Of a DNA stretch of 64,000 nucleotides, positions 2,362 to 59,008 are shown piece after piece. The stretch is from assembly GCA_029351405.1 (NCBI GenBank), contig GCA_029351405.1_4841.1, one strand, 5' to 3'. Each line of letters opens with the position of its first letter. Positions within the stretch are counted from its first letter, which is position 1. Under the pieces are notes generated by a model. It was not told the DNA's origin. It saw only the letters and a program-made list of their open reading frames with translations, and did no database searches. A program made the translations under genes and the position numbers. The stretch is from Escherichia coli (GTDB taxonomy: Bacteria > Pseudomonadota > Gammaproteobacteria > Enterobacterales > Enterobacteriaceae).

Positions 2362-2823
2362 CTACTCCGCCAGGGTGATCACAACCATATTTAAGACTGT
2401 GTCGATAGCTCGGCCTGTTTCCTCTTCATGGAGGGTTTCGGCGCGGAGGTGCACGTCGGTGATGAAATTGTCGATGTGCATTGACGTCAGGTACGGGCGG
2501 TGCTGGCTGACCGGACGGTTGATCAGTACATAGTTACGCAGTGTGTTGAAGTCCTGCTGAGAGCACCCGGTGGTGTCAATGCGCAGGAAGCGTTCATTGT
2601 GGCTTGTCTTCAACTCAGTTACTTTGCCGAGGTAGACCAGAGGTCCATTGCGACCGATACGGAACATAACATCAACAACAGACTTGAAGATTTCGCGTTC
2701 AATCAGTGCGGTGGGTGACCAGCAGATCTCTTCTTTGTCGTCGGCGTACAGGGTGTCGATCACCAGAGGGAGTTGAATGTAACCGAAGTTGTGCAGTGGG
2801 TTGGTGAGTACCTTGTTTGTCAT
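2362..2823 (-). CDS. hypothetical early protein
   Basis: ATG at 2823 preceded by conserved leader TTGAAAGCAGGAACTATATC; the ORF-track N-terminal extension is the in-frame leader. Confidence 0.6.
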   Translation of the reverse strand: MTNKVLTNPLHNFGYIQLPLVIDTLYADDKEEICWSPTALIEREIFKSVVDVMFRIGRNGPLVYLGKVTELKTSHNERFLRIDTTGCSQQDFNTLRNYVLINRPVSQHRPYLTSMHIDNFITDVHLRAETLHEEETGRAIDTVLNMVVITLAE

Positions 2824-2873
2824 GATATAGTTCCTGCTTTCAATTTGTGGCGAATGCCAATGAATTACTGGGA

Positions 2874-7647: not shown

Positions 7648-8442
7648 TTAACTGAAACTCTTGTATGCTGCTGCGAGCTTCGTGTCGTACTGGTTCTTGG
7701 CATACGCCGGACCATTATAGCGCCGCGCAAACTCAGCCCAGTTCTTGTCCTTCAGAGCCTGCCAGAGCTTGGCGTCAGCCTTGATGAACTTCACGAATGC
7801 CATCAAATGAGCACGTTCTCCTGTCAGGAAGTCGTTGAACATCTCCTTGGCGTTGGCATATCCACAGACCTGGCAGTTGAATCCCATGATCTGGAAGAGA
7901 CCGTAAGAGGCGCTCTCGTACGCACAATCCTCGTCGATGTTGATCGCTGCATGAAGTCGATCCAACTCCGCGTCGCCGCCCGTGTACCCGCCTGCGGAAG
8001 GGCTGACCAACGTCGGGTACATATGTCCCATGGCATTCGCCCGAGCCTGTCCGAACTTCGCCATCAGCTTCTTATACATGATGTGGCGCTCAAATAATGT
8101 CTTGATCTTACCTGATTTGGTGAAGCCCGTGCCGCGCGACTCAACCTGATTCACCGCCTTGACAGAGGCAAGGTCAACACCCAGATCGTTAGCAGCATCA
8201 ATCAGGTCTGACTCAGTTAGATGATCCTGATGGGCGTCTCCGGCGTTGCGAATAGCATAGGAGGTCTTTGGACCCACGATACCATCAATGACAAGTCCCG
8301 CACCCGCCTGAACCGTCTTGACGGCGTTCTCTGTTACCTTGCCAAAGATACCATCAGCGACGAGGGTGAAGCCGATTTTGTTGAGGCTATTCTGAAGTGC
8401 CTTCACTTCAGTGCCACGGTTGCCAAGTTTTAGAATGGCCAT
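7648..8442 (-). CDS. endolysin (peptidoglycan-binding domain plus muramidase-like domain)
   Basis: PG_binding-like N-terminus (LKLGNRGTEVKALQ...); C-terminal FARRYNGP region; ATG at 8442 with SD GGAGG (ORF-track start at 8457 is GTG). Confidence 0.8.
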   Translation of the reverse strand: MAILKLGNRGTEVKALQNSLNKIGFTLVADGIFGKVTENAVKTVQAGAGLVIDGIVGPKTSYAIRNAGDAHQDHLTESDLIDAANDLGVDLASVKAVNQVESRGTGFTKSGKIKTLFERHIMYKKLMAKFGQARANAMGHMYPTLVSPSAGGYTGGDAELDRLHAAINIDEDCAYESASYGLFQIMGFNCQVCGYANAKEMFNDFLTGERAHLMAFVKFIKADAKLWQALKDKNWAEFARRYNGPAYAKNQYDTKLAAAYKSFS

Positions 8443-8471
8443 AAGAAATACCTCCACAATGAATGCAGAGG

Positions 8472-8479
8472 TATTTAAA
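8472..8479 (-). promoter_or_regulatory. candidate late promoter box (TTTAAATA)
   Basis: 30 nt upstream of the endolysin ATG; one mismatch to TATAAATA. Confidence 0.3.
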
Positions 8480-8627
8480 GTGAAAGTGAACTACTCGAGA
8501 AACTGAGGGAAAACTTTGTTCGGAATGTGGTCAGCAACCCAGAGAGCGCCTAAAGATGATTGAATGACTGTGATCTCCTCCCAAGACCTGATAGGGGGAG
8601 TTGCCTCCCCTATGTTACACGTCGGGA

Positions 8628-9116
8628 TTAGGCCAGTTTGCTCACCAGAGCTTCAACTGCGTCGGCGCTCAGTTTACCCATTTTGACGTACTGAGCTTTT
8701 GCTTCGCCGCCAACTGCTTTCACGATGTCGGTGTTGTCGTACCCCTTCTTAGGGAAGACCATCACAGAGAAGGAACCGTTGTTCAGCGGGTTCAGCTGGA
8801 TGCGACCTTTACCGACTACGATGGTGCCGTAAGTTTCGGTGTTTGCTTCGACAATGTGGATGTCGTGACCCAGGTTTTTCAGCATACCAACTTTGTCGGC
8901 AGTCTTAGCAACCACAGCTTTGTCAACCACAACCTGCTCTACCAGGGTGAAGCCGTTAGTCGATTTCACTTTACCGTTCAGCAGGTTCATGAAGGAAGTT
9001 TTGCCACCAGTGAAGCCAGCCGCCTGAGCGATGCGGAACATTTCAACTTTAGCAACTTCGGTGTTCAGTTCGAAAGAGATGGTGCCGTTGGTGATCAGAG
9101 TTTTGGTAGTAGCCAT
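8628..9116 (-). CDS. hypothetical early protein
   Basis: 162 aa; SD GAGGAA; strong early promoter upstream. Confidence 0.65.
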   Translation of the reverse strand: MATTKTLITNGTISFELNTEVAKVEMFRIAQAAGFTGGKTSFMNLLNGKVKSTNGFTLVEQVVVDKAVVAKTADKVGMLKNLGHDIHIVEANTETYGTIVVGKGRIQLNPLNNGSFSVMVFPKKGYDNTDIVKAVGGEAKAQYVKMGKLSADAVEALVSKLA

Positions 9117-9189
9117 GATGTAATTCCTCATAATGTAGTTGGTTCATTTCACTTTTCATTCGGCGGTGTGTTGCCGCCCTATGTGAACT

Positions 9190-9218
9190 ATAATAGTGCA
9201 TCATTATTGAAGAGTAAA
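9190..9218 (-). promoter_or_regulatory. early sigma70-like promoter (CTTTACT-17-TATTAT)
   Basis: Hexamers with 17-nt spacer about 75 nt upstream of the 9116 start. Confidence 0.5.
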
Positions 9219-9256
9219 GTCTTTTTCAATAATTTTTTAAAATATTTTTGAAGTAT

Positions 9257-9283
9257 TTTAAAAGGCCTCATTCGACGAGGCCT
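9257..9283 (-). terminator. rho-independent terminator
   Basis: ggcctc / gaggcc hairpin followed by UUUUAAAAU on the minus strand. Confidence 0.45.
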
Positions 9284-9311
9284 GGAGGGAGGTGATGTGA
9301 AGTAAAAAGTT

Positions 9312-9518
9312 TTAGCTCGGGCGAAATCTTACAAACTCGCGAGCCAATTCGGCCTGCTCAGCACTGATAGGAACTCCATGGAAGTCCACCTGACCATTCT
9401 TCCAGCCGTGGATGAAACTCGGGGACTCTTCCCCAGATAGGACATACCCCTCACGAGATTTCAAGTACCCCCGCAGGATCTCTCCGTCGTCCAGTTTGTT
9501 CAGTTCTTCTAACGTCAT
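9312..9518 (-). CDS. hypothetical protein
   Basis: 68-aa ORF; SD GAGGAAAG; overlaps the primase stop. Confidence 0.55.
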   Translation of the reverse strand: MTLEELNKLDDGEILRGYLKSREGYVLSGEESPSFIHGWKNGQVDFHGVPISAEQAELAREFVRFRPS

Positions 9519-15443: not shown

Positions 15444-15779
15444 TTATTTTTGAACTTGGGCTACAGACATCGCCCAGAGCGGGAGGGTGTGGGGGTCCAG
15501 GGCTTCCAGTAGATATTCGACGCGCTCTGACATGATACCTTCAGGGAAGTTTACTTCTTCTGGTTCGTTGTTGGCCGTCCAACCCAAGGTCAGTCCTTCA
15601 GCGTGATGGATGATATAAACGAAGTCGCCCGATTCGTAGTCCTTTTCCATCAGGTCGAAGAACGCTTCCATTTCTTCGTCGGAGAAGTAGTAGATGCGAG
15701 GTACGGAGCCGTCAGCAAAGTGTTCAGCACCCTGGAAGGCAAACATGTCATCGGCGGTGAAGTTCTTGAGTTGTGTCAT
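15444..15779 (-). CDS. hypothetical early protein
   Basis: 111 aa; conserved leader GAAGGAACTATATC-ATG. Confidence 0.6.
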   Translation of the reverse strand: MTQLKNFTADDMFAFQGAEHFADGSVPRIYYFSDEEMEAFFDLMEKDYESGDFVYIIHHAEGLTLGWTANNEPEEVNFPEGIMSERVEYLLEALDPHTLPLWAMSVAQVQK

Positions 15780-15801
15780 GATATAGTTCCTTCGGTTCAA
15801 A

Positions 15802-16077
15802 TTAACGGCGGAAAGGGCGGTTTGCGTTTTCGCGGTTAGACCAATTCTTTTCAGCCCGAGCGATAGCCGCTGGACTCCATTCGCGCTCCCACTCTTTGTC
15901 TACTTCAGCCTGGTTGGCAGGCTCTACCATTTCAACGCCAGGGAAGTCGCATGACATGATTTCGCGCAGCTGGGCAGCTGGGGCGGTCTGGGCGTGGATC
16001 AATTCTTCGCCGTCGTAAACCTTGGCCATCAGGTATTTCTGACCGTGGCGGATATATGCGTCGAGGATAATTTTCAT
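15802..16077 (-). CDS. hypothetical early protein
   Basis: 91 aa; conserved leader TTGAAAAGCAGGAACTACACC-ATG; PeSL promoter upstream. Confidence 0.6.
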   Translation of the reverse strand: MKIILDAYIRHGQKYLMAKVYDGEELIHAQTAPAAQLREIMSCDFPGVEMVEPANQAEVDKEWEREWSPAAIARAEKNWSNRENANRPFRR

Positions 16078-16125
16078 GGTGTAGTTCCTGCTTTTCAAGT
16101 TGGTGTTGTACTGCTTATGGAATGA

Positions 16126-26616: not shown

Positions 26617-27279
26617 TTACACCTCCACCGCGTGAGACTTCAGGAGTTCATCAATCTCTTTCTGTCCCATGTATGAGAACGGGGTGCGCTGGTAGAACGC
26701 CCAGAGTACTAACTGGACAACAGCACGGGAACGGGTTTCGGCCGTCATCACCAGGCCACTGAAATGAGGAGACTCAGCTGTCCATTGTATCTCTTCGCCC
26801 AGGTCTTGATTACAGGTCACCGAGATGCGGAACTTGTTGCACAGATTGTCGACTTCTTTGTACGCATCGGTAGACACACGAAGTTGTTCCGCATGTGCCC
26901 ACGGAGTTGTGACGATTCTTTCACCCATCACTTTATCAGAGATAAACCAATCAATACATTCGGTAAACTCACTAAAATGGTCGATACGATAAATGCAGTC
27001 TCCCCCTTCCATAGAACGCATGGCATGATAGCGAGCGTCGATTTCGTTGTTGTGCATCGCGTTGAAGTCGATGAACACGCGACGCGCCAGCACAACATCT
27101 TCTGGTTGAAGTGCCAGGAAATCGTTCAGGCGGCTATAATGGAGGACATTGGAACCGTCGTGGCCACGTGTGCAATATGCGTAATGGCTACCGATACGGG
27201 CGTGGGCAATATAAGACAACGGGGCGAAGAATAATCCGTCAGGATCAGGACCGACGATAATAGAATAAAGTTTTTCCAT
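26617..27279 (-). CDS. hypothetical early protein
   Basis: 220 aa; leader GACTATATC-ATG variant. Confidence 0.6.
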   Translation of the reverse strand: MEKLYSIIVGPDPDGLFFAPLSYIAHARIGSHYAYCTRGHDGSNVLHYSRLNDFLALQPEDVVLARRVFIDFNAMHNNEIDARYHAMRSMEGGDCIYRIDHFSEFTECIDWFISDKVMGERIVTTPWAHAEQLRVSTDAYKEVDNLCNKFRISVTCNQDLGEEIQWTAESPHFSGLVMTAETRSRAVVQLVLWAFYQRTPFSYMGQKEIDELLKSHAVEV

Positions 27280-27335
27280 GATATAGTCACTCAAATGAAA
27301 GGGCAGCTTTATGATAAGCCGCCCGAGGTTATTGA

Positions 27336-29815: not shown

Positions 29816-30007
29816 TTAGCGCATCCATCGATCCTTTCTCTCTTTCTCCTTGCGTTCGCGACGTTTCTGGTCGGATCGGAATAACCAATAGAAGAAGTTC
29901 CCACCCAAGATGAAAACCACCGCGATTATTACTAGGACACCCTTCACAATTTCCCAAACCAATTCTTTATCCAAATTACACCTCGTCTTCTTCAGGTCCA
30001 CCGTCAA
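29816..30007 (-). CDS. possible small membrane protein (start uncertain, non-ATG)
   Basis: Hydrophobic core VLVIIAVVFILGGNFFYWLF; only TTG/GTG starts available; overlaps the neighbouring ORF. Confidence 0.25.
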   Translation of the reverse strand: MTVDLKKTRCNLDKELVWEIVKGVLVIIAVVFILGGNFFYWLFRSDQKRRERKEKERKDRWMR

Positions 30008-30263
30008 TCAGGATACGAGCGGTGTCGAAAGTTTCCCCACCCGTGTTCAACAGCTTGGTTAGATCATCAAGAGTACCGACAGGACCAAGATCAGCCTGGC
30101 GGAGAACGAACTCTAGAAGCCCGTAGAGCGCTGATTGGAAACGGGAGTTGTCGATATCGTTCTTGACTTCCATCAGGCGGACAACATTGGCAGACTGGAC
30201 ATAACTCAGCTGAGTCTTACCTTTTGCCATGTCTTTCACGGAACGGCGTTGTTCAGGCGTCAT
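29976..30263 (-). CDS. hypothetical protein
   Basis: 95 aa; ATGA overlap with the upstream gene. Confidence 0.55.
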   Translation of the reverse strand: MTPEQRRSVKDMAKGKTQLSYVQSANVVRLMEVKNDIDNSRFQSALYGLLEFVLRQADLGPVGTLDDLTKLLNTGGETFDTARILIDGGPEEDEV

Positions 30264-30637
30264 AATGTTCCACCCCCGACAGAGATCAAGAACTCTTCTT
30301 GCATGGTCTTGACCGGGTGGTGGTTTCGGATTTCGATCATGAAGCCCCAGCCGCCGTCGGCGACGTTGCCAAAGGTCTTGACGCCAAAGGACTTCGTCCC
30401 GTTGGAGCAGGAATAGATGTCCAGGACGTATGGGCTACCCTGATTGTCGATCCCACGATTCACGTCTTCTGATACGCAGCGCTCAATCATCTTCCCGTTC
30501 TTATACAGAACGAGGTCTTGGCCATACGCCTTGAAAGCATAAACACCGTTGGTAGACACTCCGGTGATGACAGGAGGGGCGGAAACAGCAGCAAAGGAAG
30601 CGCCTAGCAGGGCAACAGCGAGGATTAACTTTTTCAT
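30260..30637 (-). CDS. secreted protein (signal peptide)
   Basis: MKKLILAVALLGASFAAVSA signal peptide; conserved leader ...GACTATATC-ATG. Confidence 0.6.
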   Translation of the reverse strand: MKKLILAVALLGASFAAVSAPPVITGVSTNGVYAFKAYGQDLVLYKNGKMIERCVSEDVNRGIDNQGSPYVLDIYSCSNGTKSFGVKTFGNVADGGWGFMIEIRNHHPVKTMQEEFLISVGGGTL

Positions 30638-30661
30638 GATATAGTCTCTTGGTTTCAAATG

Positions 30662-30683
30662 GGCGGGGTATGATTACCCCGCC
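30662..30683 (-). repeat. GC-rich leader stem-loop (ggcggggta-tgat-taccccgcc), family member
   Basis: 9-bp stem; related copies at 31223, 43148 and 31960; loop is the reverse complement of the 31223 copy. Confidence 0.5.
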
Positions 30684-30689
30684 GTGGGT

Positions 30690-31196
30690 TTATAGAGTAA
30701 CAAGTGATACGGTAAAAACCATCGTCCCGTCTGTTGCCATTTTTCTTGAAACTGGTATGACGCGAGGCTGGCAGAATATCCATTCTTTCTCCATGGACGC
30801 CAAGTCCAGCATATCCATTTCTGATTCATCGCCTTTGTTCACAAATTTTTCTAGAGAACCATAGACATTAAGCCCCTCCGGGAGTCCGTTTCGATGTTTG
30901 TAACAAATGCGGGCAACAGCTTTGGTTCCGTACGATTTAGAAAATTGTTTGGCCACATGCTTCAGTTCACTGAAGCTAAGACAAGAATCCCATGTCTGGA
31001 ACATGTCGCCTCGTTCAAACATCATCTCTAAACGCGCAACGTCCTCTTTAGGCAGCCCGCGATAAAGTGTGGTCGTCTGTGGTTCGCGTAATTCTTGCAC
31101 CAGATCACGGACGGCAGGGGAAACAGTACCGGGGCGCATTATGTGGGACTTATCATGGACGAGGTAAAATAAATCTTGAATTTGTTGATCGGTCAT
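30690..31196 (-). CDS. putative ADP-ribosyltransferase (R-S-E type, ModA/ModB-like)
   Basis: 168 aa; YRG ... SFS ... EKEWIF spacing matches the R / S-x-S / E-x-E triad; conserved early leader. Confidence 0.45.
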   Translation of the reverse strand: MTDQQIQDLFYLVHDKSHIMRPGTVSPAVRDLVQELREPQTTTLYRGLPKEDVARLEMMFERGDMFQTWDSCLSFSELKHVAKQFSKSYGTKAVARICYKHRNGLPEGLNVYGSLEKFVNKGDESEMDMLDLASMEKEWIFCQPRVIPVSRKMATDGTMVFTVSLVTL

Positions 31197-31222
31197 GGTA
31201 TAGTTCCTGCATTTCAAATAGA

Positions 31223-31240
31223 CGGGGTAATCATACCCCG
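31223..31240 (-). repeat. GC-rich leader stem-loop (cggggta-atca-taccccg), family member
   Basis: Same stem as the 30662 copy with inverted loop. Confidence 0.5.
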
Positions 31241-31302
31241 CCCAAAGTTATAGAATTAACTGATGTGCTTCAGAAGAGCGAAGAGGATCGCGGCCTTGGC
31301 CT

Positions 31303-31494
31303 TTACCTTTCCCACGATACCTGTCTCGACATCAACTTCTTCAGCAACCCACTCTTTCCCTTCTTGCTGATGATAACGTCACGACGCTGTGCGTAGACTT
31401 CTTTGGTCGCATACACACGACGGAACCCTTTAGCGCGGAGCAAGCCCCAATTGCGATCAATTTCTACTGAGGTTTCTACCATTTTGTTCTTCAT
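31303..31494 (-). CDS. small basic protein
   Basis: 63 aa; leader TTGAAAGGTAAGATTATAAC-ATG. Confidence 0.5.
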   Translation of the reverse strand: MKNKMVETSVEIDRNWGLLRAKGFRRVYATKEVYAQRRDVIISKKGKSGLLKKLMSRQVSWER

Positions 31495-31545
31495 GTTATA
31501 ATCTTACCTTTCAACCCGGTGAACCCATCGTTCGCCAGTTATTGA

Positions 31546-31574
31546 ATAATAGGACATTCCTTAGAGGAAGTAAA
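31546..31574 (-). promoter_or_regulatory. early sigma70-like promoter (GTTTACT-17-TATTAT)
   Basis: Hexamers with 17-nt spacer immediately 3' of the terminator hairpin (PeSL architecture). Confidence 0.5.
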
Positions 31575-31590
31575 CCCCTAAAAGTAAAAA

Positions 31591-31610
31591 TCCCCAACGT
31601 TTGTTGGGGA
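31591..31610 (-). terminator. rho-independent terminator ending the vWA / ACP-like operon
   Basis: tccccaac / gttgggga 8-bp stem followed by UUUUUACUUUU on the minus strand. Confidence 0.55.
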
Positions 31611-31616
31611 CTTCTG

Positions 31617-31940
31617 TTATTTGCGCAGGGCAACTACGAGTTCAGCGAGTTCACCCATGGTCGGGTCATCACCTTTACTGCCCAGCCAACCATCGTCGAT
31701 TTCGACCTGAAACTCTTCTTCGAGGTCCATTACAATTTCGATAGCGTCCAGTTCATCACCGCCGAGGTCTTTCTTGGTACGGAGGCCAGCCAGCTTGTCC
31801 AGGGCGTCCTCGTTCTGAGATGCCACGTCGTCCAGCAATTTGCGCTTGTCATCGTCACGCCACAGATCCAAGTTCAGATTGTCAGTGGCGTACTGAGCCA
31901 GATGACGCATGACTTCAACATATGTTGGTTTGCTGCTCAT
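31617..31940 (-). CDS. acyl-carrier-protein-like protein lacking the phosphopantetheine serine (DSL replaced by DEL)
   Basis: 107 aa; DLGGDELDAIEIVMDLEEEFQVEI aligns with the E. coli ACP core [34 protein letters not shown]. Confidence 0.65.
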   Translation of the reverse strand: MSSKPTYVEVMRHLAQYATDNLNLDLWRDDDKRKLLDDVASQNEDALDKLAGLRTKKDLGGDELDAIEIVMDLEEEFQVEIDDGWLGSKGDDPTMGELAELVVALRK

Positions 31941-31982
31941 GCTACTTCTCCCAAAGAATGGCGGGTTGCCCCGCCCGTTGGA

Positions 31983-34184
31983 TTAGATTTTGATTTCTTT
32001 CTCTGTCAGTTCGGCAGTGACCTTGTACTTCACCCCATCCACTTCAACTTCCATGGTGGACTCTTCCAGGTCGAGGTCGGTGAACCAGCCATGACCAGCA
32101 ACGATACCATACACCACTTTAGACAGCGTCTTGTTCAGGGCGCGGACTTCGGTGATGGCCGCCTTGGTAGCAGCGTCGATCCAGTTTTCGATCAGCTGTT
32201 TCTGTAGGGCTTCAGGCACGGCAGTGATCATAGGAGACTTCACAAATGCTTCGTACTCTTTCAGAGCATTGGCGATGAACAAGTCACCAGCATTGAGTTT
32301 CTTGTTCTCGGCGATCTTCTTCTGTACTGCCGCGATGCTCGGTAGTGAAGATGCCCCGGCGATCTTAACGTTCAGCTCACGGCTCATGTAGACGTCCGTG
32401 GAGTCCTTCAGTTCGGTCTTCGGTGAGAAGCCGTAATCGCGGATGCCGTAGGAGGACAGGAACTCGGCCGCCTCAGCGCCGTACTGTACTGCCAGGCCTT
32501 TGGCGTTACCCTTACCAACCAGGGCGTCTCGATAGAACTTCAGTACCTTCTGCTTGCCTTTCAGGGCTTCCAGGCGGACATTATCCGCAAAGAACTGAGC
32601 AGCACTGATGTTCTTGACCATGGCGCGGTTGACCAGCGGTACGCTTTCCAGGTTCAGGATGAACACTTCCGGACCACCAAACACGTGGACGCCCATTTCG
32701 ATCAGCTTCTGTACAACTTCGATATCAGCCTTGAACGGCAGAGTCTTCACGTTAATGATACCGTCTTTGACGATGGTGTAGTTGCGCCACTGGAAAGTAT
32801 CCAGTTCTTCAGGCAGGCCAAACTTCTTCTGTGCGAATTCAGGCACAGCCACAGTACCGTGTTGAATTGTACGCACACTGATGTTCGGGCGCTCGGAGTT
32901 ATAGACCAAATCGCTGATTGGCACAACACCCAGGTCGTTGGTAGGTTCGAACGTCGGGTTCCACTCTTCGTGTTCTGCCAGCTTGAGAGCCAGGGCTTTA
33001 CGCTCTTCTTTGGACTGAGCATTCGCGATCTGTTCTGCCAGCTTGTCTTCGGTGTCGTCGGTTTTCTGCACAGTACCGCGCCCGATACTCTTATAGGAGA
33101 ACATCGGATGCTTGGTAGCAACAGGCACACCAGCTTCAGCCAGGTACGTCAGCACATCAACGACGGTTGTCGCATCTTCAGCCGGAACCATGTCATAGTC
33201 AATACCGTCAACGCCGCGCAGCTGGTCATCAACAATCGCCTGAACCAGATCGTTCTTGATGTTGGAGTAGTCCTGCTTGGTGAAGCAGTTGCTGTACTGT
33301 TTGATGAAGCGAACGTCGCCCGTCTTCTTCAGCGCAGCCCAAACCAGATCTGCGTCCATAGTGTGTACGCCGTAGAACGCCAGCACGTATGCCGCCTGGA
33401 TGTCCGTCAGGCTATCCATCTGGTCGATCATGTTAGGGTTTACAACCCACAGCTTGGTGACGCTCTCAGGGATGCTCACATAGCCGACCGGGTGAGAGTC
33501 ATCGTCCTGTACCGCCAGCACTGTTGCCACACCGTTTTCGACGTAGATTGCATGGGTGTAGATGACTGGGACATCAACTTTCACCTTCGGCACTGATGAC
33601 TTCAGCACGTTTTCCAGTTCGTTCTGGTATTCGGTCTGACCTTCGGCAAACACGTGAGTAGCACCGGAGCGTTCGGCCATCTGCGCCAGCAGTTCGCGGT
33701 TACAGTACCAGCCGTATTCGATAAATGTAATGTTATCGAAAGCAAATGGCAGGGTCTCAGCAACCAGTAAGATTTCGTTGGTACGCCAGCAGTTGTCATA
33801 ACCATCGGTCATGAATGCCAGGTTGTTGACGTAGCCAGGTTTCTTCAGGTCACGCGCAGTATCCATCGCCAGTTTCAATGGCTCAACGAAACCAGTACAG
33901 CCGGATGGTTGCAGGAAACGGTCGATCAGTTTGTTCAGCTCGCTCAGGTCAGATGCGACACCGATCTGACGCCCGGCAAATACCGTTCCGAAATCACCGC
34001 GAGATGAAAAGTAAAGGATGCTCACAGTATCTTCGGGTTTCACCAGGGAAGGTAGGTTCTCCTTCAGATGCTTACGGACTTCTGGAAGTGAACGATACAT
34101 GGAACCGGAGATATCCACAACGATTACATGGTTAGACGGCGCGACGGTCGCAACCGCATTCTTAAATGTTAATGATTCAATCAT
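31983..34184 (-). CDS. von Willebrand factor A domain protein
   Basis: 733 aa from the ATG at 34184; MIDAS-like VVDISGSM ... FMTDGYDN. Confidence 0.7.
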   Translation of the reverse strand: MIESLTFKNAVATVAPSNHVIVVDISGSMYRSLPEVRKHLKENLPSLVKPEDTVSILYFSSRGDFGTVFAGRQIGVASDLSELNKLIDRFLQPSGCTGFVEPLKLAMDTARDLKKPGYVNNLAFMTDGYDNCWRTNEILLVAETLPFAFDNITFIEYGWYCNRELLAQMAERSGATHVFAEGQTEYQNELENVLKSSVPKVKVDVPVIYTHAIYVENGVATVLAVQDDDSHPVGYVSIPESVTKLWVVNPNMIDQMDSLTDIQAAYVLAFYGVHTMDADLVWAALKKTGDVRFIKQYSNCFTKQDYSNIKNDLVQAIVDDQLRGVDGIDYDMVPAEDATTVVDVLTYLAEAGVPVATKHPMFSYKSIGRGTVQKTDDTEDKLAEQIANAQSKEERKALALKLAEHEEWNPTFEPTNDLGVVPISDLVYNSERPNISVRTIQHGTVAVPEFAQKKFGLPEELDTFQWRNYTIVKDGIINVKTLPFKADIEVVQKLIEMGVHVFGGPEVFILNLESVPLVNRAMVKNISAAQFFADNVRLEALKGKQKVLKFYRDALVGKGNAKGLAVQYGAEAAEFLSSYGIRDYGFSPKTELKDSTDVYMSRELNVKIAGASSLPSIAAVQKKIAENKKLNAGDLFIANALKEYEAFVKSPMITAVPEALQKQLIENWIDAATKAAITEVRALNKTLSKVVYGIVAGHGWFTDLDLEESTMEVEVDGVKYKVTAELTEKEIKI

Positions 34185-34503: not shown

Positions 34504-35376
34504 TTATTTAAAGGAGTCTACAATGGATTTGAAAATATAATCTTTGGAGCGCTGTTGTACCGGGAGTTCTCCATACGGAACCATGCAAGGGTGTTGTTTG
34601 GTCTGAGGGTCTTTGACTGGGCCATACACCCAACCCTCAGACTCCTTCTCCGCCATCCATCTCTCATGCGATTCGCTGGGCTTACGATCACCAGTGAGGT
34701 GGAAGATAACACCTTTGCAAGCGCTCTCACGTTGCCAGGCCGGAGATTGTTCCCAAGGCAGTTGAGAGTCGTCACCAACAGACTTACAGTATGCGCGGTT
34801 GGCTTCATGACAAATCTTGGCGATGCGCAGAACCAATGGCGAATAAGTGAGATCGAGTTTGGAGTTGGCGCGCAGGAAATCACTAACAGTCTTACGAGAT
34901 TTGGCGTTATGAGATTCAACAACAAGTTCCATGTCATCCGGCCCACAAACGAAAGACGCCAAGAAGCGCTCACCATTTTCCGCTCTGAACGTCACGTCCT
35001 GAATCATCACATTGAAGCCGAGGTGATAGGCCGGATAGAGGGCGCTACGTTCAACAGCGTATTGATCGATCCGGATCTCTGCCGTTTCCGTGGCTTTGGC
35101 CAACAGATCTTGTTCAACAAGCGCCCGGTACGTCTCGAGCTGCCACAGCTGGTCGAAGGTATTATTGTAGGAAATCTCTTTGCCCAGGGCTTCATCGAAG
35201 TTGGCAGGGTCTATGGATGTGCTGGGCTTGGTGCCGTGAACGACGAAGCCGTTATCCATCTTGAAATGACAAGTGATAGCCCGGTGACCGCCGACTTCGC
35301 GGTCTTCGTAAATCACCTCAGCGATATGTGACTTCAGGACTTCAGGAGTGAGTTTTATGCCAGTACGAGTTGTCAT
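34504..35376 (-). CDS. RyR-domain protein
   Basis: 290 aa; C-terminal ...HERWMAEKESEGWVYGPVKDPQTKQHPCMVPYGELP matches the RyR-domain consensus; SD AGGATAA. Confidence 0.65.
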   Translation of the reverse strand: MTTRTGIKLTPEVLKSHIAEVIYEDREVGGHRAITCHFKMDNGFVVHGTKPSTSIDPANFDEALGKEISYNNTFDQLWQLETYRALVEQDLLAKATETAEIRIDQYAVERSALYPAYHLGFNVMIQDVTFRAENGERFLASFVCGPDDMELVVESHNAKSRKTVSDFLRANSKLDLTYSPLVLRIAKICHEANRAYCKSVGDDSQLPWEQSPAWQRESACKGVIFHLTGDRKPSESHERWMAEKESEGWVYGPVKDPQTKQHPCMVPYGELPVQQRSKDYIFKSIVDSFK

Positions 35377-35384
35377 GTGTTATC

Positions 35385-35759
35385 CTATGATAGTTGTTTA
35401 CAGACCTCCACTACTTTACGACACATATCGATATTGAACAACCCAATATGACAATCGCGCTTCTTGATCCCCAGCTTATGCGCCAGCCAACTGTAAGCGT
35501 CGCTCCTGCTCAACTCTCCGCTTTTCCACAGTGGGTCAAACGATCTATGGGCTTCCTGCTTAGCAGCACGGAGAGCGGCATTCGCCATCCTTCCCAAAGG
35601 TTGTCTGCCGTCGCCATGGGCATGGCAACCGACACGGGCATCACATGGGGTACATACCCAGAACTTCAGATTGCGGAGGTCAGGACGATGAGGGTAGAGA
35701 ACATCACCACCGACGAATTCGGCTGGGAGGCCACAGTAATCACATATAACAGGTTCCAT
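35385..35759 (-). CDS. zinc-ribbon protein (CDYCG ... CTPCD)
   Basis: 124 aa from the ATG at 35759; two CxxC pairs; terminator hairpin immediately upstream. Confidence 0.55.
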   Translation of the reverse strand: MEPVICDYCGLPAEFVGGDVLYPHRPDLRNLKFWVCTPCDARVGCHAHGDGRQPLGRMANAALRAAKQEAHRSFDPLWKSGELSRSDAYSWLAHKLGIKKRDCHIGLFNIDMCRKVVEVCKQLS

Positions 35760-35777
35760 ATTCTTTGTCCAAAAGAA

Positions 35778-35796
35778 ACCCCGCACATGGCGGGGT
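35778..35796 (-). terminator. rho-independent terminator
   Basis: aaccccgc / gcggggtt stem followed by UUUCUUUUGG on the minus strand. Confidence 0.5.
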
Positions 35797-35819
35797 TGCT
35801 CAGGCCGAGGCCAACAGGG

Positions 35820-36191
35820 TTATTTCAGCAGCGCTTCCAGTTCTTCAATAGATTTGCCTTCCAGCTCCTGCTGTTTCTTACGCTGGATCAGCTCCAGGAT
35901 AACCTGGTTGTTCGCCTTACGCTCTGCCGCGTCTTTGATGTCGTCGCGTTCTTTCAGCTTAACACCGATGATGTGCTTGACAACGTCGAAGCGCAGCTGC
36001 AATTCGGAATCAACGTTGCTTTTGGTGCCAATGAAATCTTCTTCATCGGTTTCTGCTGCTTTCACCTGACGGCTCAGACCTTTCGCCATTTCGTTCAGGG
36101 CGGTCAGGCTCAGATCCCAAACCTGCTCAACAGACAGCAGACCTTTGTTAGACTCGAAGCGCAGTTTCAGACGGGTTACTTTATCAAACAT
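35820..36191 (-). CDS. hypothetical coiled-coil protein
   Basis: 123 aa; SD GAGGATAG. Confidence 0.6.
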   Translation of the reverse strand: MFDKVTRLKLRFESNKGLLSVEQVWDLSLTALNEMAKGLSRQVKAAETDEEDFIGTKSNVDSELQLRFDVVKHIIGVKLKERDDIKDAAERKANNQVILELIQRKKQQELEGKSIEELEALLK

Positions 36192-38254: not shown

Positions 38255-38368
38255 GATGTAATCTTCCTGTTTCAGTTCAAATGTGCGCCCCGTTTGCCAG
38301 GGCGCTTCGTTTAAGTGAGGTCAATATACGCTGGATTGAGTTATTGAAGAACGAAGTAAAGGGAATCT

Positions 38369-41469: not shown

Positions 41470-42459
41470 TCACTTCCACTTGATGTTGAGCATGACATTG
41501 GTCAGGAAAAACACAGCATGCAACCAGACATCGCCGACTTGGCGGTGTTCAATCTGAGACTGACCACATACGCACACCAGATCAGGGATAGACTCATTCT
41601 GAACCAACATTTGCTTCTCTTTATCCTGTGGCACACAGAACTGGAAGAAGCGGGAATAGAAGTCTTCAGTGATATAGTTCTGGTTGTCGGTCACCCACTG
41701 CTTCATCCCAGCCCAGTCATTATCCTTCAACATATTCACCAACATGCCCATATCGGCCGATTTTAACACAGCCAGTGCACGTTCGTCGATCTTGCCGTAA
41801 GTGGTGACGTTATCCTGTAGAACACCCATGATGCGGCGGTTATCAGGGAAATGGCGCTTGACAATAGCAGCCAACACAGGAGGGTCATACTCAACACCTT
41901 CGCTGCGAAGGATTTCAGCACAGCGGCGCATGAACTGAAGTTTGACCTCATCAGCCTCAGTCTCATTCCAGATAAAGTCGATTTCACGGCAACGAGAGCG
42001 CAGAGGTTCGTTCACACGTTGCTTGGCGTTGGTGGTCAGGATGAATGAACAGTTCTTGGAGACCTTCTCCACAATACCCTTCAGCGACTCCTGCGCCGCC
42101 ATAGACAGACGCTCTACTTCGTCGAGGATAACGACTTTGCGACCACCGAATACACTCACACCAGTAGAGTACTGAATCACGCGGTCACGGATAACGTCGA
42201 TACTGTTGTCCAGGGATGCGTTGATCATCAGTGGTTGCTTACAACCGATCTCGTTACACACAGCCAGGGCGGAGGTAGTCTTGCCAGTACCAGGCTGAGG
42301 GGAGTAGAACAGCATAGACGGGATGTTACCGTTGCCGCTGGTGATGTAGCCATGGATTTTAGCGCGGACGTCTTGAGGGATGATAATCTCGTCCAGGTTG
42401 TCAGGGCGGAAACGGTTCTCCCAGGCGTACTGGTCTTTTACAATCGTGATATTAGACAT
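41470..42459 (-). CDS. gp44: clamp loader large subunit, T4 gp44-like (AAA+ RFC family)
   Basis: 329 aa; Walker A SPQPGTGKTT; SRC-like motif; aligns with T4 gp44. Confidence 0.9.
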   Translation of the reverse strand: MSNITIVKDQYAWENRFRPDNLDEIIIPQDVRAKIHGYITSGNGNIPSMLFYSPQPGTGKTTSALAVCNEIGCKQPLMINASLDNSIDVIRDRVIQYSTGVSVFGGRKVVILDEVERLSMAAQESLKGIVEKVSKNCSFILTTNAKQRVNEPLRSRCREIDFIWNETEADEVKLQFMRRCAEILRSEGVEYDPPVLAAIVKRHFPDNRRIMGVLQDNVTTYGKIDERALAVLKSADMGMLVNMLKDNDWAGMKQWVTDNQNYITEDFYSRFFQFCVPQDKEKQMLVQNESIPDLVCVCGQSQIEHRQVGDVWLHAVFFLTNVMLNIKWK

Positions 42460-43115
42460 TATGTATTTCCATGATATAGTTTACAGAACAGAACCCAAGC
42501 GTCGTCATCATACGGGTTCCAGCCCTCTTTGAATTTGTTTAACATACTCGTTGCGGTGTTCTCTTTAATAGAGAACAAACGGGCAATTCTATGGCACCCA
42601 TCACCAGTAGAAACCCAGTGATCATACACTACCCCAGCCTTTAACCACATCGGTCTGGTGTTGTGTAGCAGCGCAGCCCCGGTGTCCCAGGGTTTTATTC
42701 CTGCGGCGGGGTGGCTTTTACCAGTTCTTCCGTGCATGGGATGAAGATTCCCAGACTTGCCCTTCAACCAACTCGAGACACCAACTCGGTGATGTTTAGG
42801 TCCCGCTGACCTACCGTTGGCGATACCACAACCCCGTGGCTGAAATGATTTGTTTAAACATTTTGGGTGATCAATGTTCTCACTAATCAACTGCTGCTCT
42901 CTCCAATATGCTTCTTCTGGGGAGTCAAACAGTTCTACGAATTCTACATCAAAGAAATCAGAACCTTTCTTAGATATGATTTCCTTGACTGTTTGTGAAG
43001 AAGTGAAATATGAAGTGAACAATTGTAAAGGATGTGCACCCAATTTCGTTCTAGAACCAAAATAGAAAGAACCATCCTTCCCTAACAAATGATATACAAA
43101 CGGTTGGTTCCTCAT
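42459..43115 (-). CDS. GIY-YIG homing endonuclease (seg-like) with NUMOD3-type repeats
   Basis: VYHLL ... FYFGSR GIY-YIG motifs, 10-aa spacing; C-terminal KGKSGNLHPMHGRTGKSHP repeats; inserted between gp45 and gp44; start at 43115 or 43139. Confidence 0.7.
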   Translation of the reverse strand: MRNQPFVYHLLGKDGSFYFGSRTKLGAHPLQLFTSYFTSSQTVKEIISKKGSDFFDVEFVELFDSPEEAYWREQQLISENIDHPKCLNKSFQPRGCGIANGRSAGPKHHRVGVSSWLKGKSGNLHPMHGRTGKSHPAAGIKPWDTGAALLHNTRPMWLKAGVVYDHWVSTGDGCHRIARLFSIKENTATSMLNKFKEGWNPYDDDAWVLFCKLYHGNT

Positions 43116-43147
43116 TTCAGCCTCGTGTAGAAGAATCATTTCAAATA

Positions 43148-43166
43148 GGCGGGGAACTCCCCCGCC
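43148..43166 (-). repeat. GC-rich leader stem-loop (ggcgggg-aactc-ccccgcc), family member
   Basis: 7-bp stem followed by TATTTGAAATG, as in the 30662 and 31223 copies. Confidence 0.4.
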
Positions 43167-43196
43167 CACACATTATAGCATCAGGCTGGAGATTGA

Positions 43197-50696: not shown

Positions 50697-51140
50697 TCAG
50701 TTGTTAATGCGGAACAGTTGTGGATAACCACCTGGATGCCCTTCTCCGGTCACGAAGACCTCGTACCGGGCACCTTTAACCAAACCGGGCAAATTGCCTG
50801 AGTCGAGCAGATAGCGGATTTTATCCATAGTGTCCATCCAGGACTTAGCAGGTTCAGCTTCAGCCTCTCCACGATTGAGGACGAGTTCACCTTCAGAATA
50901 ATACTTCCCGCTGTCCTTCATGTAGTACAGCTTGATATGGATATACTGAGGGGATGGGACCAAACGCCAGCCGTCATCAATCAGATCCTGGCGATCATTA
51001 TCCAGGGACTGGTAATCGATCTCACCAGACGCCAGACCATAGCTGCGCATGTAGCGGAACTTCTCAACACGGTCTTTCACGTCAGAGATGAAGAACTCCT
51101 TCGCGGCTGGACTGATAAAAATGTATTTCTCTTTTGACAT
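50697..51140 (-). CDS. hypothetical early protein
   Basis: 147 aa; conserved leader TTTGAAAGGAAGGAACTATATC-ATG overlapping the upstream stop. Confidence 0.6.
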   Translation of the reverse strand: MSKEKYIFISPAAKEFFISDVKDRVEKFRYMRSYGLASGEIDYQSLDNDRQDLIDDGWRLVPSPQYIHIKLYYMKDSGKYYSEGELVLNRGEAEAEPAKSWMDTMDKIRYLLDSGNLPGLVKGARYEVFVTGEGHPGGYPQLFRINN

Positions 51141-51157
51141 GATATAGTTCCTTCCTT

Positions 51158-58603: not shown

Positions 58604-58960
58604 CTATTTGCGAATGCCAACCTGAGCATAATACACATGATAATCACCGTGGGTACGGAAGCTGGTGAGGTGGAAGGTGACGAGGTGGCTCCCGAAAGCT
58701 ACAACTTTGGTATCTGGGGAGCATAAATCATTAGTTAGTTCACCCAGAACCTTACCACAAAACTCCCCAACAATAGCGTTAAATCTGTCAATGTGTGGAC
58801 TGGTCACCGTCATTGGACCAACATCTGCACAGTAGATCCCTTTTATCATCTTTCCCTGGCTGTCGCGTACTGGCTTTGCAGGCTGGTAAGGGTTGACGCG
58901 GCGTTTCAGGTTACAGAGGCCGATTTCTTTCAGGATAGCGTTAATTTCGGTCTTGGTCAT
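58604..58960 (-). CDS. hypothetical early protein inserted between gp18 and gp19
   Basis: 118 aa; conserved leader TTGAAACGAAGGATCTATATC-ATG; own early promoter. Confidence 0.6.
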   Translation of the reverse strand: MTKTEINAILKEIGLCNLKRRVNPYQPAKPVRDSQGKMIKGIYCADVGPMTVTSPHIDRFNAIVGEFCGKVLGELTNDLCSPDTKVVAFGSHLVTFHLTSFRTHGDYHVYYAQVGIRK

Positions 58961-59008
58961 GATATAGATCCTTCGTTTCAAGTTGGTGTCGTACTGCTTA
59001 TGTTTAGA

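What the first reader, a model, noticed from the sequence alone, without database searches (positions are those of the whole stretch)
30662..31240. Putative ADP-ribosyltransferase gene flanked by the same GC hairpin in opposite loop orientation
The 168-aa product (30690-31196) has an R-S-E arrangement (LYRG, then SCLSFS, then EKEWIF) with spacing typical of ModA/ModB-type ADP-ribosyltransferases. The gene is flanked by two copies of a ggcggggta ... taccccgcc stem whose 4-nt loops are reverse complements (tgat at 30671-30674, atca at 31230-31233). Related GC stems occur at 43148-43166 (before the homing endonuclease) and 31960-31975 (before the ACP-like gene).
Basis: partly seen in the sequence, partly recalled or inferred. 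Interest (0 to 1): 0.55.

Follow-up and report, generated by a model that had tools for sequence, protein, structure and literature searches.

The report
Swappable Mod-type ADP-ribosyltransferase gene cassette
A Vi1-like (Ackermannviridae) phage carries a small relative of the T4 ModA/ModB ADP-ribosyltransferases as an optional gene cassette bounded by two copies of an RNA hairpin module; the opposite loops come from a tiny inversion that recurs at perfect hairpins in this phage family, so the finding is real but mostly ordinary.

Summary
A 168-aa minus-strand gene (30690-31196) is flanked by two copies of a 9-bp GC stem whose 4-nt loops are reverse complements. The second copy has one mismatch on the + strand, which is a G.U wobble on the mRNA strand.

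The hairpins belong to a repeated intercistronic module: TATAAN box, GC stem-loop, YATTTGAAA, SD, ATG. Stem variants keep pairing on the mRNA strand. The module marks a three-state slot holding ART, denV or nothing, and the ART indel is exactly the 559-bp hairpin-to-hairpin unit.

The opposite loop is derived. The closest relatives AV101 and MK-13 have tgat at both copies. An unrelated terminator at 31591-31610 also flips (aaac in 80 records, gttt in 53). This points to recurrent micro-inversion by template switching, not a programmed switch.

Overall it is a new member of known kinds and of modest interest. Enzyme activity, targets and the hairpin's RNA role are untested.

The parts
30690..31196 (-). 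Mod-family (R-S-ExE) mono-ADP-ribosyltransferase gene, 168 aa; candidate catalytic residues R46, S74(-x-S76), E136-x-E138
31219..31244 (-). Upstream hairpin (leader of the ART gene): UGGGCGGGGUA-ugau-UACCCCGUCUA, 11 bp with 2 G.U pairs; core 31221-31242
   Evidence: sense RNA -19.3 kcal/mol, z -4.2; antisense -12.0 kcal/mol
30662..30683 (-). Downstream hairpin (leader of the next gene): GGCGGGGUA-auca-UACCCCGCC, perfect 9 bp; loop inverted relative to close relatives
   Evidence: -18.3 kcal/mol, z -4.6; loop state in relatives
31212..31220 (-). UAUUUGAAA box directly 3' of the upstream hairpin
   Evidence: conserved as YATTTGAA in four genera
30653..30661 (-). CAUUUGAAA box directly 3' of the downstream hairpin
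31194..31208 (-). Shared translation-initiation block AGGAACTATACCATG (SD, spacer, ART start codon)
   Evidence: 9 copies in the window, all on the minus strand, against 0.18 expected
30635..30649 (-). Same block, AGAGACTATATCATG, for the downstream gene
31247..31252 (-). -10-like TATAAC box 4-5 nt 5' of the upstream hairpin, in non-coding DNA after the stop codon of the 79-aa gene
   Evidence: TATAAC/A/T in Kuttervirus, Agtrevirus and Limestonevirus; AATAAC in Taipeivirus
30689..30694 (-). TATAAA box 5 nt 5' of the downstream hairpin; includes the ART stop codon TAA
30260..30637 (-). Downstream gene, 125 aa, with a signal-peptide-like N-terminus (MKKLILAVALLGASFAAVSA); replaced by other genes in many relatives
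   Evidence: no Pfam hit
31257..31494 (-). Conserved 79-aa gene upstream of the slot, frameshifted in the window by a 1-nt deletion (ORF truncated to 63 aa, 31303-31494)
31591..31610 (-). Canonical terminator after the ACP-like gene, UCCCCAAC-aaac-GUUGGGGA followed by UUUUU; its loop is also found inverted (gttt) in many relatives
31546..31574 (-). Predicted early promoter TTTACT-N17-TATTAT just 3' of that terminator (a PeSL-like arrangement)
   Evidence: annotated as a putative early promoter in LIMEstone1
43146..43168 (-). Same type of module (TGcTATAAT-N5-GGGCGGGGG-agt-UCCCCGCC-UAUUUGAAAUG) in the gp45-to-gp44 intergenic leader, now used by an inserted GIY-YIG gene
31960..31975 (-). GGCGGG-gcaa-CCCGCC hairpin followed by AUUCUUU, between the vWA gene and the ACP-like gene
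   Evidence: annotated as a terminator in Marshall, Menlow and LIMEstone1
38285..38305 (-). Further module member: GCGCCCUG-gcaaa-CGGGGCGC followed by ACAUUUGAA, SD and ATG

Best explanation
The window comes from a Vi1-like (Ackermannviridae, Agtrevirus-like) phage. Gene 30690-31196 (minus strand) encodes a minimal Mod-family mono-ADP-ribosyltransferase of the R-S-ExE clade. By analogy with T4 ModA/ModB, it most likely uses NAD+ to ADP-ribosylate arginines of host transcription or translation proteins after infection. That step is inferred and not shown. The gene is an accessory cassette. Each gene in this stretch is preceded by a roughly 45-60-bp module made of a -10-like TATAAN box, a 9-11-bp GC stem-loop, a YAUUUGAAA box, a Shine-Dalgarno sequence and the ATG. 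The stem-loop is selected at the RNA level on the mRNA strand. It most likely acts as intercistronic punctuation, meaning a leaky terminator or a barrier that stabilises the neighbouring mRNA ends, and it forms the 5' leader of the downstream cistron. The exact RNA role is inferred. Because the module is repeated in direct orientation on both sides of the ART gene, recombination between the copies removes or adds exactly one 559-bp unit. This gives the three states seen in nature: ART, denV or empty. The opposite loops are not functional. In one lineage (window, ZQ1, one IMG/VR contig) the 4-nt loop of the perfectly palindromic downstream copy was inverted in a single step. The most likely mechanism is intramolecular template switching during replication, a mutation that recurs at perfect hairpins in this phage family.
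Against: There are no biochemical data for this protein, and the model confidence is only moderate (pLDDT 73, with residues 15-24 below 50). Pfam, NCBIfam and the PDB sequence search give nothing. Formal covariation support for the stem is weak, because the stem barely varies: one compensatory pair, and 86 of 500 shuffles reach the observed score. The excess of wobbles could partly reflect a strand-biased C-to-T mutation spectrum. The tails CAUUUGAA and UAUUUGAA fail the terminator scan's T-run criterion, so terminator function is doubtful, and no transcript-end data were found in the held literature. The direction of the events (gain or loss of ART) and the recombination pathway are not determined. 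Template switching is inferred from the pattern and not observed. The balanced aaac/gttt polymorphism could be an old polymorphism spread by recombination rather than many independent flips.
Confidence: 0.7

Rival explanations
1. The hairpins are simply rho-independent terminators, one after each gene. Their similarity reflects common terminator design, and they have no role in the leader or in recombination.
For: They start 4-17 nt after stop codons, are GC-rich and stable, and pair on the mRNA strand. The LIMEstone1 record carries 'putative factor-independent terminator' features next to the orthologous hairpins, and Marshall and Menlow annotate the vWA-to-ACP one. Canonical terminators with true U-runs are common elsewhere in the window.
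Against: The tails have only 3-4 U and fail the scan criterion. In Ag3, the L003 contig and Menlow, the same hairpin type lies 3' of a -10-like box in the slot before the 79-aa gene, where the window and LIMEstone1 have a canonical terminator followed by a predicted early promoter. The two ART-flanking copies share not just a GC stem but an identical 9-bp stem plus conserved flanks, and the 559-bp indel is bounded inside them.
Confidence: 0.3
2. The TATAAN box together with the hairpin is a promoter whose transcripts start at the base of the hairpin. The stem-loop would then be a 5'-terminal stabiliser, as in the ompA leader, and the module would be the early-gene signal that could not be found in ViI-like phages.
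For: A -10-like hexamer lies 4-5 nt 5' of the hairpin at four slots in the window: TATAAC, TATAAA, TGcTATAAT and TCTAAT. In the gp45-to-gp44 slot the hexamer is kept (TATAAT in Agtrevirus, TATTAT in Kuttervirus S115) although the surrounding spacer has diverged. Kutter et al. 2011 reported that early promoters could not be identified in CBA120 (PMC3184105).
Against: No convincing -35 element is present: the scan did not call promoters at these sites, and promoter-like hits in the region equal the shuffle expectation (20 against 20.2). In two slots the TAA is simply the upstream stop codon. T6 of the hexamer is missing in most upstream-copy orthologues, and Taipeivirus has AATAAC. There are no 5'-end data.
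Confidence: 0.15
3. The loop is a programmed invertible element, a phase-variable switch that regulates the ART gene.
For: The two loops flanking the gene are exact reverse complements, and both states exist among close relatives.
Against: Most ART-carrying relatives have the same loop (tgat) on both sides. The flip also occurs at an unrelated terminator that does not flank the ART gene. A 4-nt segment between 9-bp arms is far below what known invertases act on (established knowledge). No recombinase domain was found among the 13 neighbouring window proteins scanned. The loop lies outside any promoter, SD or coding sequence.
Confidence: 0.03
4. The protein has an ART-like fold but is not a protein-modifying enzyme. 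It could be an NADase, an RNA/DNA ADP-ribosylating or RNAylating enzyme, or an inactive binding protein that counters NAD-dependent host defences.
For: It is shorter than ModA/ModB (168 aa against 200/207) and lacks a stretch of about 20 residues present in most relatives. The nearest characterised homologue, ModB, also transfers NAD-capped RNA (PMC10468400). The gene is dispensable and is exchanged with a DNA-repair gene at the same slot.
Against: All catalytic motif residues of the arginine-specific R-S-ExE class are invariant or nearly so across the family, which argues for an active transferase.
Confidence: 0.15

Closest known systems
T4 ModA and ModB (Mod family of R-S-E clade viral ADP-ribosyltransferases; Iyer et al. 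2022, PMC9503650)
   Same: Same PHROG family, aligned R / S-x-S(T) / E-x-E-W motifs, the same small single-domain ART fold, and encoded among small accessory genes of a large T4-related myovirus.
   Different: Only about 20% identity. It is 168 aa and lacks an internal segment of about 20 residues. It carries a conserved N-terminal LxHDKxH motif that is not conserved in ModA/ModB. It is a single gene, not a modA-modB tandem. Targets, timing and activity are unknown. It is present in only about a quarter of Ackermannviridae records.
PeSLs (promoter-early stem-loops) of T4-type phages, mobile regulatory cassettes that mediate modular shuffling (Arbiol et al. 2010, PMC2839356; Comeau et al. 2014, PMC4122927)
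   Same: Short conserved composite intergenic motifs that end in an SD and start codon, are repeated around small accessory ORFs, and coincide with insertion, deletion and replacement boundaries between close relatives.
   Different: In PeSLs the stem-loop lies just upstream of a full -35/-10 promoter. Here only about 27 nt separate the hairpin from the ATG, no promoter follows it, and the only promoter-like box lies in front of the hairpin. Mini-circle formation was not tested. A genuine terminator-then-promoter unit does exist one slot upstream (31546-31610).
Intrinsic (factor-independent) terminators, as annotated in LIMEstone1 (HE600015; Adriaenssens et al. 2012, PMC3296691)
   Same: A stable GC stem-loop on the mRNA strand just after a stop codon.
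   Different: A short, interrupted U tract, a conserved AUUUGAA box instead of a U-run, and the same hairpin type also found 3' of a -10-like box in the slot before the 79-aa gene in Ag3, the L003 contig and Menlow.
Hairpin-associated micro-inversions caused by template switching at (quasi-)palindromes, known from E. coli quasipalindrome mutagenesis and from 'minute inversions' in chloroplast non-coding DNA (own knowledge, not checked in the library)
   Same: The inverted segment is exactly the spacer between perfect inverted repeats. All loop bases change at once while stems and flanks stay identical. It recurs at independent hairpins.
   Different: To my knowledge it has not been described for these phages. 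The mechanism is inferred from comparative data only.

Membership tests
Mod family (T4 ModA/ModB) R-S-ExE ADP-ribosyltransferases | Catalytic Arg (ModB R73, ModA R72), Ser of the S-x-S/T motif and the E-x-E motif, in that order and aligned | tested here: met
   R46-G47, S74-F-S76 and E136-K-E138 align to ModB R73-G74, S99-F-T101 and E171-Q-E173 and to ModA R72. They are invariant or at least 90% conserved in 32 sequences. R73 is essential in ModB (PMC10468400).
Mod family (T4 ModA/ModB) R-S-ExE ADP-ribosyltransferases | ADP-ribosyltransferase fold | tested here: met
Mod family (T4 ModA/ModB) R-S-ExE ADP-ribosyltransferases | Significant sequence-profile match to the family that contains ModA and ModB | tested here: met
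   phrog_832 E=2.8e-15, profile positions 1270-1425. ModA and ModB hit positions 1241-1438 of the same profile. Pfam and NCBIfam have no hit, but NCBIfam also has none for ModA/ModB.
Mod family (T4 ModA/ModB) R-S-ExE ADP-ribosyltransferases | NAD+-dependent ADP-ribosylation of host proteins (RNAP alpha, S1, EF-Tu) early in infection | not testable with these tools
   No biochemical or expression data were found.
PeSL (promoter-early stem-loop) cassettes | Stem-loop immediately upstream of a sigma70-like -35/-10 promoter | tested here: not met
   Only about 27 nt lie between each ART-flanking hairpin and the ATG, and no promoter was called there. This feature is met at the neighbouring unit 31546-31610.
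PeSL (promoter-early stem-loop) cassettes | Element ends with the SD and start codon of the downstream ORF | tested here: met
   AGGAACTATAYCATG block, 9 copies against 0.18 expected.
PeSL (promoter-early stem-loop) cassettes | Copies flank variable ORFs, and indel or replacement boundaries fall in the element | tested here: met
   ART, denV and empty states. A 559-bp gap bounded inside the hairpin.
PeSL (promoter-early stem-loop) cassettes | Excision as mini-circles | not testable with these tools
   Needs outward-facing PCR on phage DNA.
Intrinsic terminator | Stable GC-rich RNA stem-loop downstream of a stop codon on the sense strand | tested here: met
   -18.3 and -19.3 kcal/mol, z -4.6 and -4.2. 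Sense-strand pairing 106/108.
Intrinsic terminator | U-rich tract (at least 5 of 8) directly after the stem | tested here: not met
   The tails are CAUUUGAA and UAUUUGAA. Neither hairpin is listed by the scan.
Programmed DNA inversion switch | Site-specific recombinase nearby, and an invertible segment carrying a regulatory or coding signal | tested here: not met
   No recombinase domain among the 13 neighbouring window proteins scanned. The segment is a 4-nt loop outside the SD and any promoter. Only the neighbourhood was scanned, not the whole genome.
Programmed DNA inversion switch | Both orientations coexist in one clonal population | not testable with these tools
   Needs read-level data.
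Template-switch micro-inversion at a perfect palindrome | Exactly the spacer between perfect inverted repeats is replaced by its reverse complement, with flanks unchanged | tested here: met
   Window, ZQ1 and L003 have atca, while MK-13, AV101, fGh-Ecl02 and ChubbyThor have tgat, with 100% identical 51-nt context otherwise.
Template-switch micro-inversion at a perfect palindrome | Recurrence at independent hairpins or lineages | tested here: met
   Terminator 31591-31610: aaac in 80 records, gttt in 53, with both states within each of three flank contexts. bering has atca at the ART-downstream copy in a different gene context.

The most novel reading that the evidence does not exclude
The TATAAN / GC stem-loop / YAUUUGAAA / SD module could be a family-specific expression signal of Ackermannviridae. 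It might be a promoter-proximal 5' hairpin or a processing or antitermination site that defines early transcription units, which Kutter et al. 2011 could not find by informatics. It would at the same time act as the portable junction that lets accessory genes such as the Mod-like ART, DenV or homing endonucleases plug into a ready-made leader. That would make it a PeSL analogue with reversed architecture in a different phage family. Separately, the 168-aa enzyme could be a minimal ModB-like RNAylating transferase.
Probability: 0.15. Interest if true: 0.55.

Novelty: new member of a known kind. Interest (0 to 1): 0.3.

Why it matters
The ART is a compact, uncharacterised relative of T4 ModA/ModB in a phage family widely used for biocontrol and therapy (Kuttervirus, Agtrevirus). 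It sits in CBA120 (orf140), for which the original paper reported no Alt/Mod homologues, so host-takeover chemistry in these phages may resemble T4 more than was thought. At 168 aa it would be one of the smallest Mod-type enzymes and a convenient target for structural and substrate work, including the question of RNAylation. The hairpin module gives a concrete, testable example of how accessory genes are swapped at a fixed slot (ART, DenV or empty) outside the T4-like phages where PeSLs were described. The recurrent loop flips provide a natural read-out of template-switch mutagenesis at perfect palindromes in phage genomes. They are also a warning that clustered 'substitutions' in hairpin loops are single events in phylogenetic or SNP analyses. 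None of this changes current concepts.

Tried and rejected
1. Pfam, NCBIfam and the PDB sequence search (only a chance citrate synthase hit at E=1) gave nothing for the protein. The precomputed PF26816 tag on two relatives could not be reproduced with the Pfam copy at hand.
2. The IMG/VR scan returned only 4 loci, so comparative work relied on the GenBank phage collection.
3. Rfam found no family at E up to 1 across 30000-32200.
4. A link to NAD salvage was rejected for this window. MK-13 has a NAMPT gene about 3.5 kb away, but the window has other genes there and no NAMPT or denV anywhere in its 64 kb.
5. Classic PeSL architecture was rejected for the two flanking copies.
6. A dsDNA operator for a dimeric repressor was considered and rejected. 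The half-site spacing differs between copies (8 nt against 5 nt between the GGCGGGG and CCCCGCC arms), and the variants preserve RNA pairing on one strand only.
7. An integron attC-like or MITE-like element was considered and rejected. The flanks show the two copies are in direct orientation, and no recombinase was found nearby.
8. Sequencing artefact as the cause of the flipped loop was rejected. The atca state occurs in three independent sequences and the aaac/gttt states in 80 and 53 records.
9. Literature searches for transcript maps of Ackermannviridae found none.
10. Tiemann et al. 2004 (PMC523198) is not held, so ModB residue numbers were taken from the alignment and from PMC10468400.
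Full report
**Source and observation**

The window belongs to a Vi1-like myovirus (Ackermannviridae). The 1.5 kb around the finding is 97-98% identical to Escherichia phage AV101, Enterobacter phage fGh-Ecl02 and Escherichia phage ZQ1, and 95% identical to Shigella phage MK-13, an Agtrevirus.

It runs from 30690 to 31196 and encodes 168 aa containing LYRG, SCLSFS and EKEWIF. The two stems are also real. GGCGGGGTA-tgat-TACCCCGCC at 30662-30683 is perfect. The copy at 31221-31242 reads GACGGGGTA-atca-TACCCCGCC on the + strand, so it has one mismatch. The pattern occurs twice against 0.01 expected.

**The protein**

- **Sequence searches.** Pfam, NCBIfam and a PDB sequence search find nothing. 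The protein does match PHROG 832, 'RNA polymerase ADP-ribosylase', at E=2.8e-15. T4 ModA and ModB match the same part of that profile, at E=1.7e-33 and 1.1e-41.
- **Family size.** The close family is small. The word-indexed search gave nine clusters. An exhaustive profile search gave 58 representatives at E<=1e-3, most of them single-domain proteins of 160-190 aa.
- **Catalytic motifs.** Among ten close relatives R46, G47, S74, E136 and E138 are invariant. In a 32-sequence alignment that includes ModA and ModB, G47 and E138 are invariant and R46, S74, E136 and W139 are at least 90% conserved. Profile alignment places LYRG on ModB L-Y-R73-G74, SFS on ModB S99-F-T, and EKEW on ModB E171-Q-E173-W. 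ModB R73A is catalytically dead (PMC10468400).

I therefore accept the ART reading and file the protein in the Mod family of the R-S-E clade, a family already recognised in viral surveys (PMC9503650). This is not new as an annotation. Many RefSeq and Pharokka-style records, including CBA120 orf140, Det7 gp48, PhaxI and MK-13, already call the orthologue 'RNA polymerase ADP-ribosylase'. The original CBA120 paper, however, stated that no homologues of the T4 early regulators were apparent (PMC3184105). Activity, substrates and timing remain untested. The name is a homology transfer.

**The hairpins act at the RNA level on the sense strand**

Read on the mRNA strand, the + strand mismatch of the upstream copy becomes a G.U wobble and the stem extends to 11 bp. 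The sense RNA folds at -19.3 kcal/mol, against -12.0 kcal/mol for the antisense strand.

I compared 17 loci from Agtrevirus, Kuttervirus, Limestonevirus and Taipeivirus, which gave 12 distinct hairpin haplotypes. Five different substitutions are wobbles on the sense strand. One pair in Ag3 changes compensatorily from G-C to A-U. Only two cells are unpaired. Overall 106 of 108 cells pair on the sense strand and 97 of 108 on the antisense strand.

Formal covariation is thin because the stem is so conserved: 86 of 500 shuffles reach the observed score. A strand-biased C-to-T mutation spectrum could also contribute to the wobble excess. I therefore treat the RNA reading as likely, not proven.

**The hairpin is part of a longer module**

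Both copies sit in the same longer module in direct orientation. It consists of a TATAAN box, 4-5 nt, the stem-loop, YATTTGAAA, a few nt, AGGAACTATAYCATG. The last block occurs nine times in the window, always on the minus strand, against 0.18 expected. GC hairpins followed by TTTGA or TTGAA occur about seven times on the minus strand and twice on the + strand, against 0.5 expected for both strands combined. About five of the minus-strand ones lead into an SD and start codon.

**What the module does**

The LIMEstone1 record places 'putative factor-independent terminator' features beside the orthologous hairpins. Three observations argue against a simple terminator:

- The tails CAUUUGAA and UAUUUGAA fail the scan's U-run criterion.
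- In the gp45-to-gp44 intergenic region the module stays with gp44 in MK-13, which lacks the inserted GIY-YIG gene. The endonuclease has simply inserted at the gp44 start codon and taken over the leader.
- In the slot before the 79-aa gene, the window, MK-13 and LIMEstone1 have a canonical terminator (31591-31610, with a real U-run), then a predicted early promoter, then only a degenerate hairpin followed by GTTGAAAGG and the SD. The promoter reads GTTTAC-N18-TATTAT in the LIMEstone1 annotation and TTTACT-N17-TATTAT in the window scan. In Ag3, the L003 contig and Menlow, a strong GGGCGGG-type hairpin occupies that leader position, 10-11 nt after a -10-like TATAAT/TATTAT box.

My best reading is an intercistronic RNA stem-loop that belongs to the leader of the downstream gene. 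It would act as a leaky terminator and/or a barrier that stabilises the adjacent mRNA ends. I also considered a reading in which the TATAAN box is a -10 element and transcripts start at the stem base. It cannot be excluded, but it lacks a -35 element, and promoter-like hits in the region equal the shuffle expectation. I found no transcript maps for this family, and Rfam has no match.

**The ART gene is an optional cassette**

By tblastn the gene is present in 67 Ackermannviridae records, plus 11 Erwinia jumbo phages at about 28-30% identity. About 271 Ackermannviridae records match some part of the slot. Downstream of the conserved 79-aa gene, the slot holds one of three things:

- **The ART gene:** the window, MK-13, CBA120, Det7, Chennai, bering, barely and CRW-SP2.
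- **denV, a pyrimidine-dimer glycosylase:** Vi01, phiD3 and LIMEstone1.
- **Nothing:** Ag3, Marshall, Menlow and IME250.

All three occur within the single genus Kuttervirus.

Empty sites carry a single hybrid module, with the left flank of copy 1 and the right flank of copy 2. Global alignment of Ag3 or Marshall with the window shows one gap of exactly 559 bp, which is the hairpin-to-hairpin distance, with its ends inside the hairpin. This is the signature of recombination between direct repeats.

Functionally this resembles the PeSL-mediated modular shuffling described for T4-type phages (PMC2839356, PMC4122927). The architecture differs, because a PeSL has its stem-loop upstream of a full promoter. 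I therefore say it works like a PeSL junction but is not one. Whether ART was gained or lost in a given lineage was not resolved.

**The loops**

At the upstream copy every orthologue has tgat, or ttat in Vi01 and CRW-SP2. At the downstream copy the states are:

- **atca:** the window, ZQ1 and IMG/VR contig L003.
- **tgat:** about 10 records, including AV101, fGh-Ecl02, MK-13 and ChubbyThor, with otherwise 100% identical 51-nt context.
- **tctt:** most Kutterviruses.
- **atca in a different gene context:** bering.

All four loop bases change to the exact reverse complement while 47 flanking bases stay identical. That pattern fits one inversion event, not four substitutions.

By chance I then found the same behaviour at an unrelated hairpin, the terminator after the ACP-like gene (31591-31610, TCCCCAAC-aaac-GTTGGGGA). 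Its loop is aaac in 80 records and gttt in 53, and both states occur within each of three flank contexts.

Loop inversion is therefore a general, recurrent mutation of perfect palindromes in these genomes. It is best explained by intramolecular template switching during replication, which is an inference based on established knowledge of quasipalindrome mutagenesis. Nothing supports a programmed switch. Most ART carriers have identical loops on both sides. The segment is only 4 nt and lies outside any expression signal. No recombinase domain was found among the neighbouring proteins scanned.

**Verdict**

The ART interpretation is supported, but the gene is already auto-annotated. The 'inverting loop' idea holds only as an evolutionary micro-inversion. 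The additions from this work are the three-state cassette slot with its 559-bp unit, the sense-strand RNA constraint on the module, and the recurrent loop flips at two independent hairpins. These are new instances of known kinds of things. Interest is about 0.3.

Noticed in passing
window 31257-31494 (minus strand): The conserved 79-aa gene upstream of the ART slot has a 1-nt deletion in the window (aaggg-aaag, near 31347) compared with MK-13, Ag3 and Chennai. The ORF is truncated to 63 aa. It is either a pseudogene or a sequencing error.
   Followed up: partly
window 31591-31610 (minus strand) and orthologues: The canonical terminator after the ACP-like gene has a 4-nt loop in two reverse-complement states across the family: aaac in 80 phage records and gttt in 53. 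Both states occur within closely related phages.
   Followed up: yes
window 42459-43115 (minus strand): A 218-aa gene with a weak SegE-type GIY-YIG signal lies between the gp45 sliding clamp and the gp44-like clamp loader. It is inserted exactly at the gp44 start codon and uses gp44's leader. It is present in about 16 records and precisely absent in MK-13, A221 and Gloob.
   Followed up: partly
window 34504-36191 compared with L002 (MK-13) 7910-9430: Gene content beyond the vWA gene differs between close relatives. MK-13 has two small genes and a nicotinamide phosphoribosyltransferase. The window has a gp49/RyR-domain protein, a DUF3268 zinc-finger protein and a 123-aa ORF, and it has no NAMPT anywhere in its 64 kb.
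   Followed up: partly
window 2821-2835, 9114-9128, 15777-15791, 16075-16089, 27277-27291, 51138-51152, 58958-58972 (all minus strand): A near-identical translation-initiation block, AGGAACTATAYCATG, is reused by at least nine genes in the window (0.18 expected). In several relatives the repeat extends into the first codons (ATGACNGATCAA, giving MTDQ) of two different genes.
   Followed up: partly
L020 (LIMEstone1, HE600015) 970-993, 1337-1361, 1709-1735: The three 'putative factor-independent terminator' features in this record lie about 25 nt 3' of the actual stem-loops, whereas the promoter features are placed correctly. This looks like a coordinate offset in the deposited annotation.
   Followed up: no
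proteins P0003 and P0006: Two close relatives carry a precomputed Pfam tag, PF26816, that the Pfam copy available here does not reproduce for any family member. A newer Pfam release may contain a model for this family.
   Followed up: partly
alignment A2, N-terminal region (residues 9-18 of the window protein): An N-terminal LxYLxHDKxH motif (K16 invariant, H14 at least 90% conserved) is conserved across the small Mod-like proteins, but apart from the Lys it is not conserved in T4 ModA/ModB. Its role is unknown, and this region has low model confidence (pLDDT below 50 for residues 15-24).
   Followed up: no
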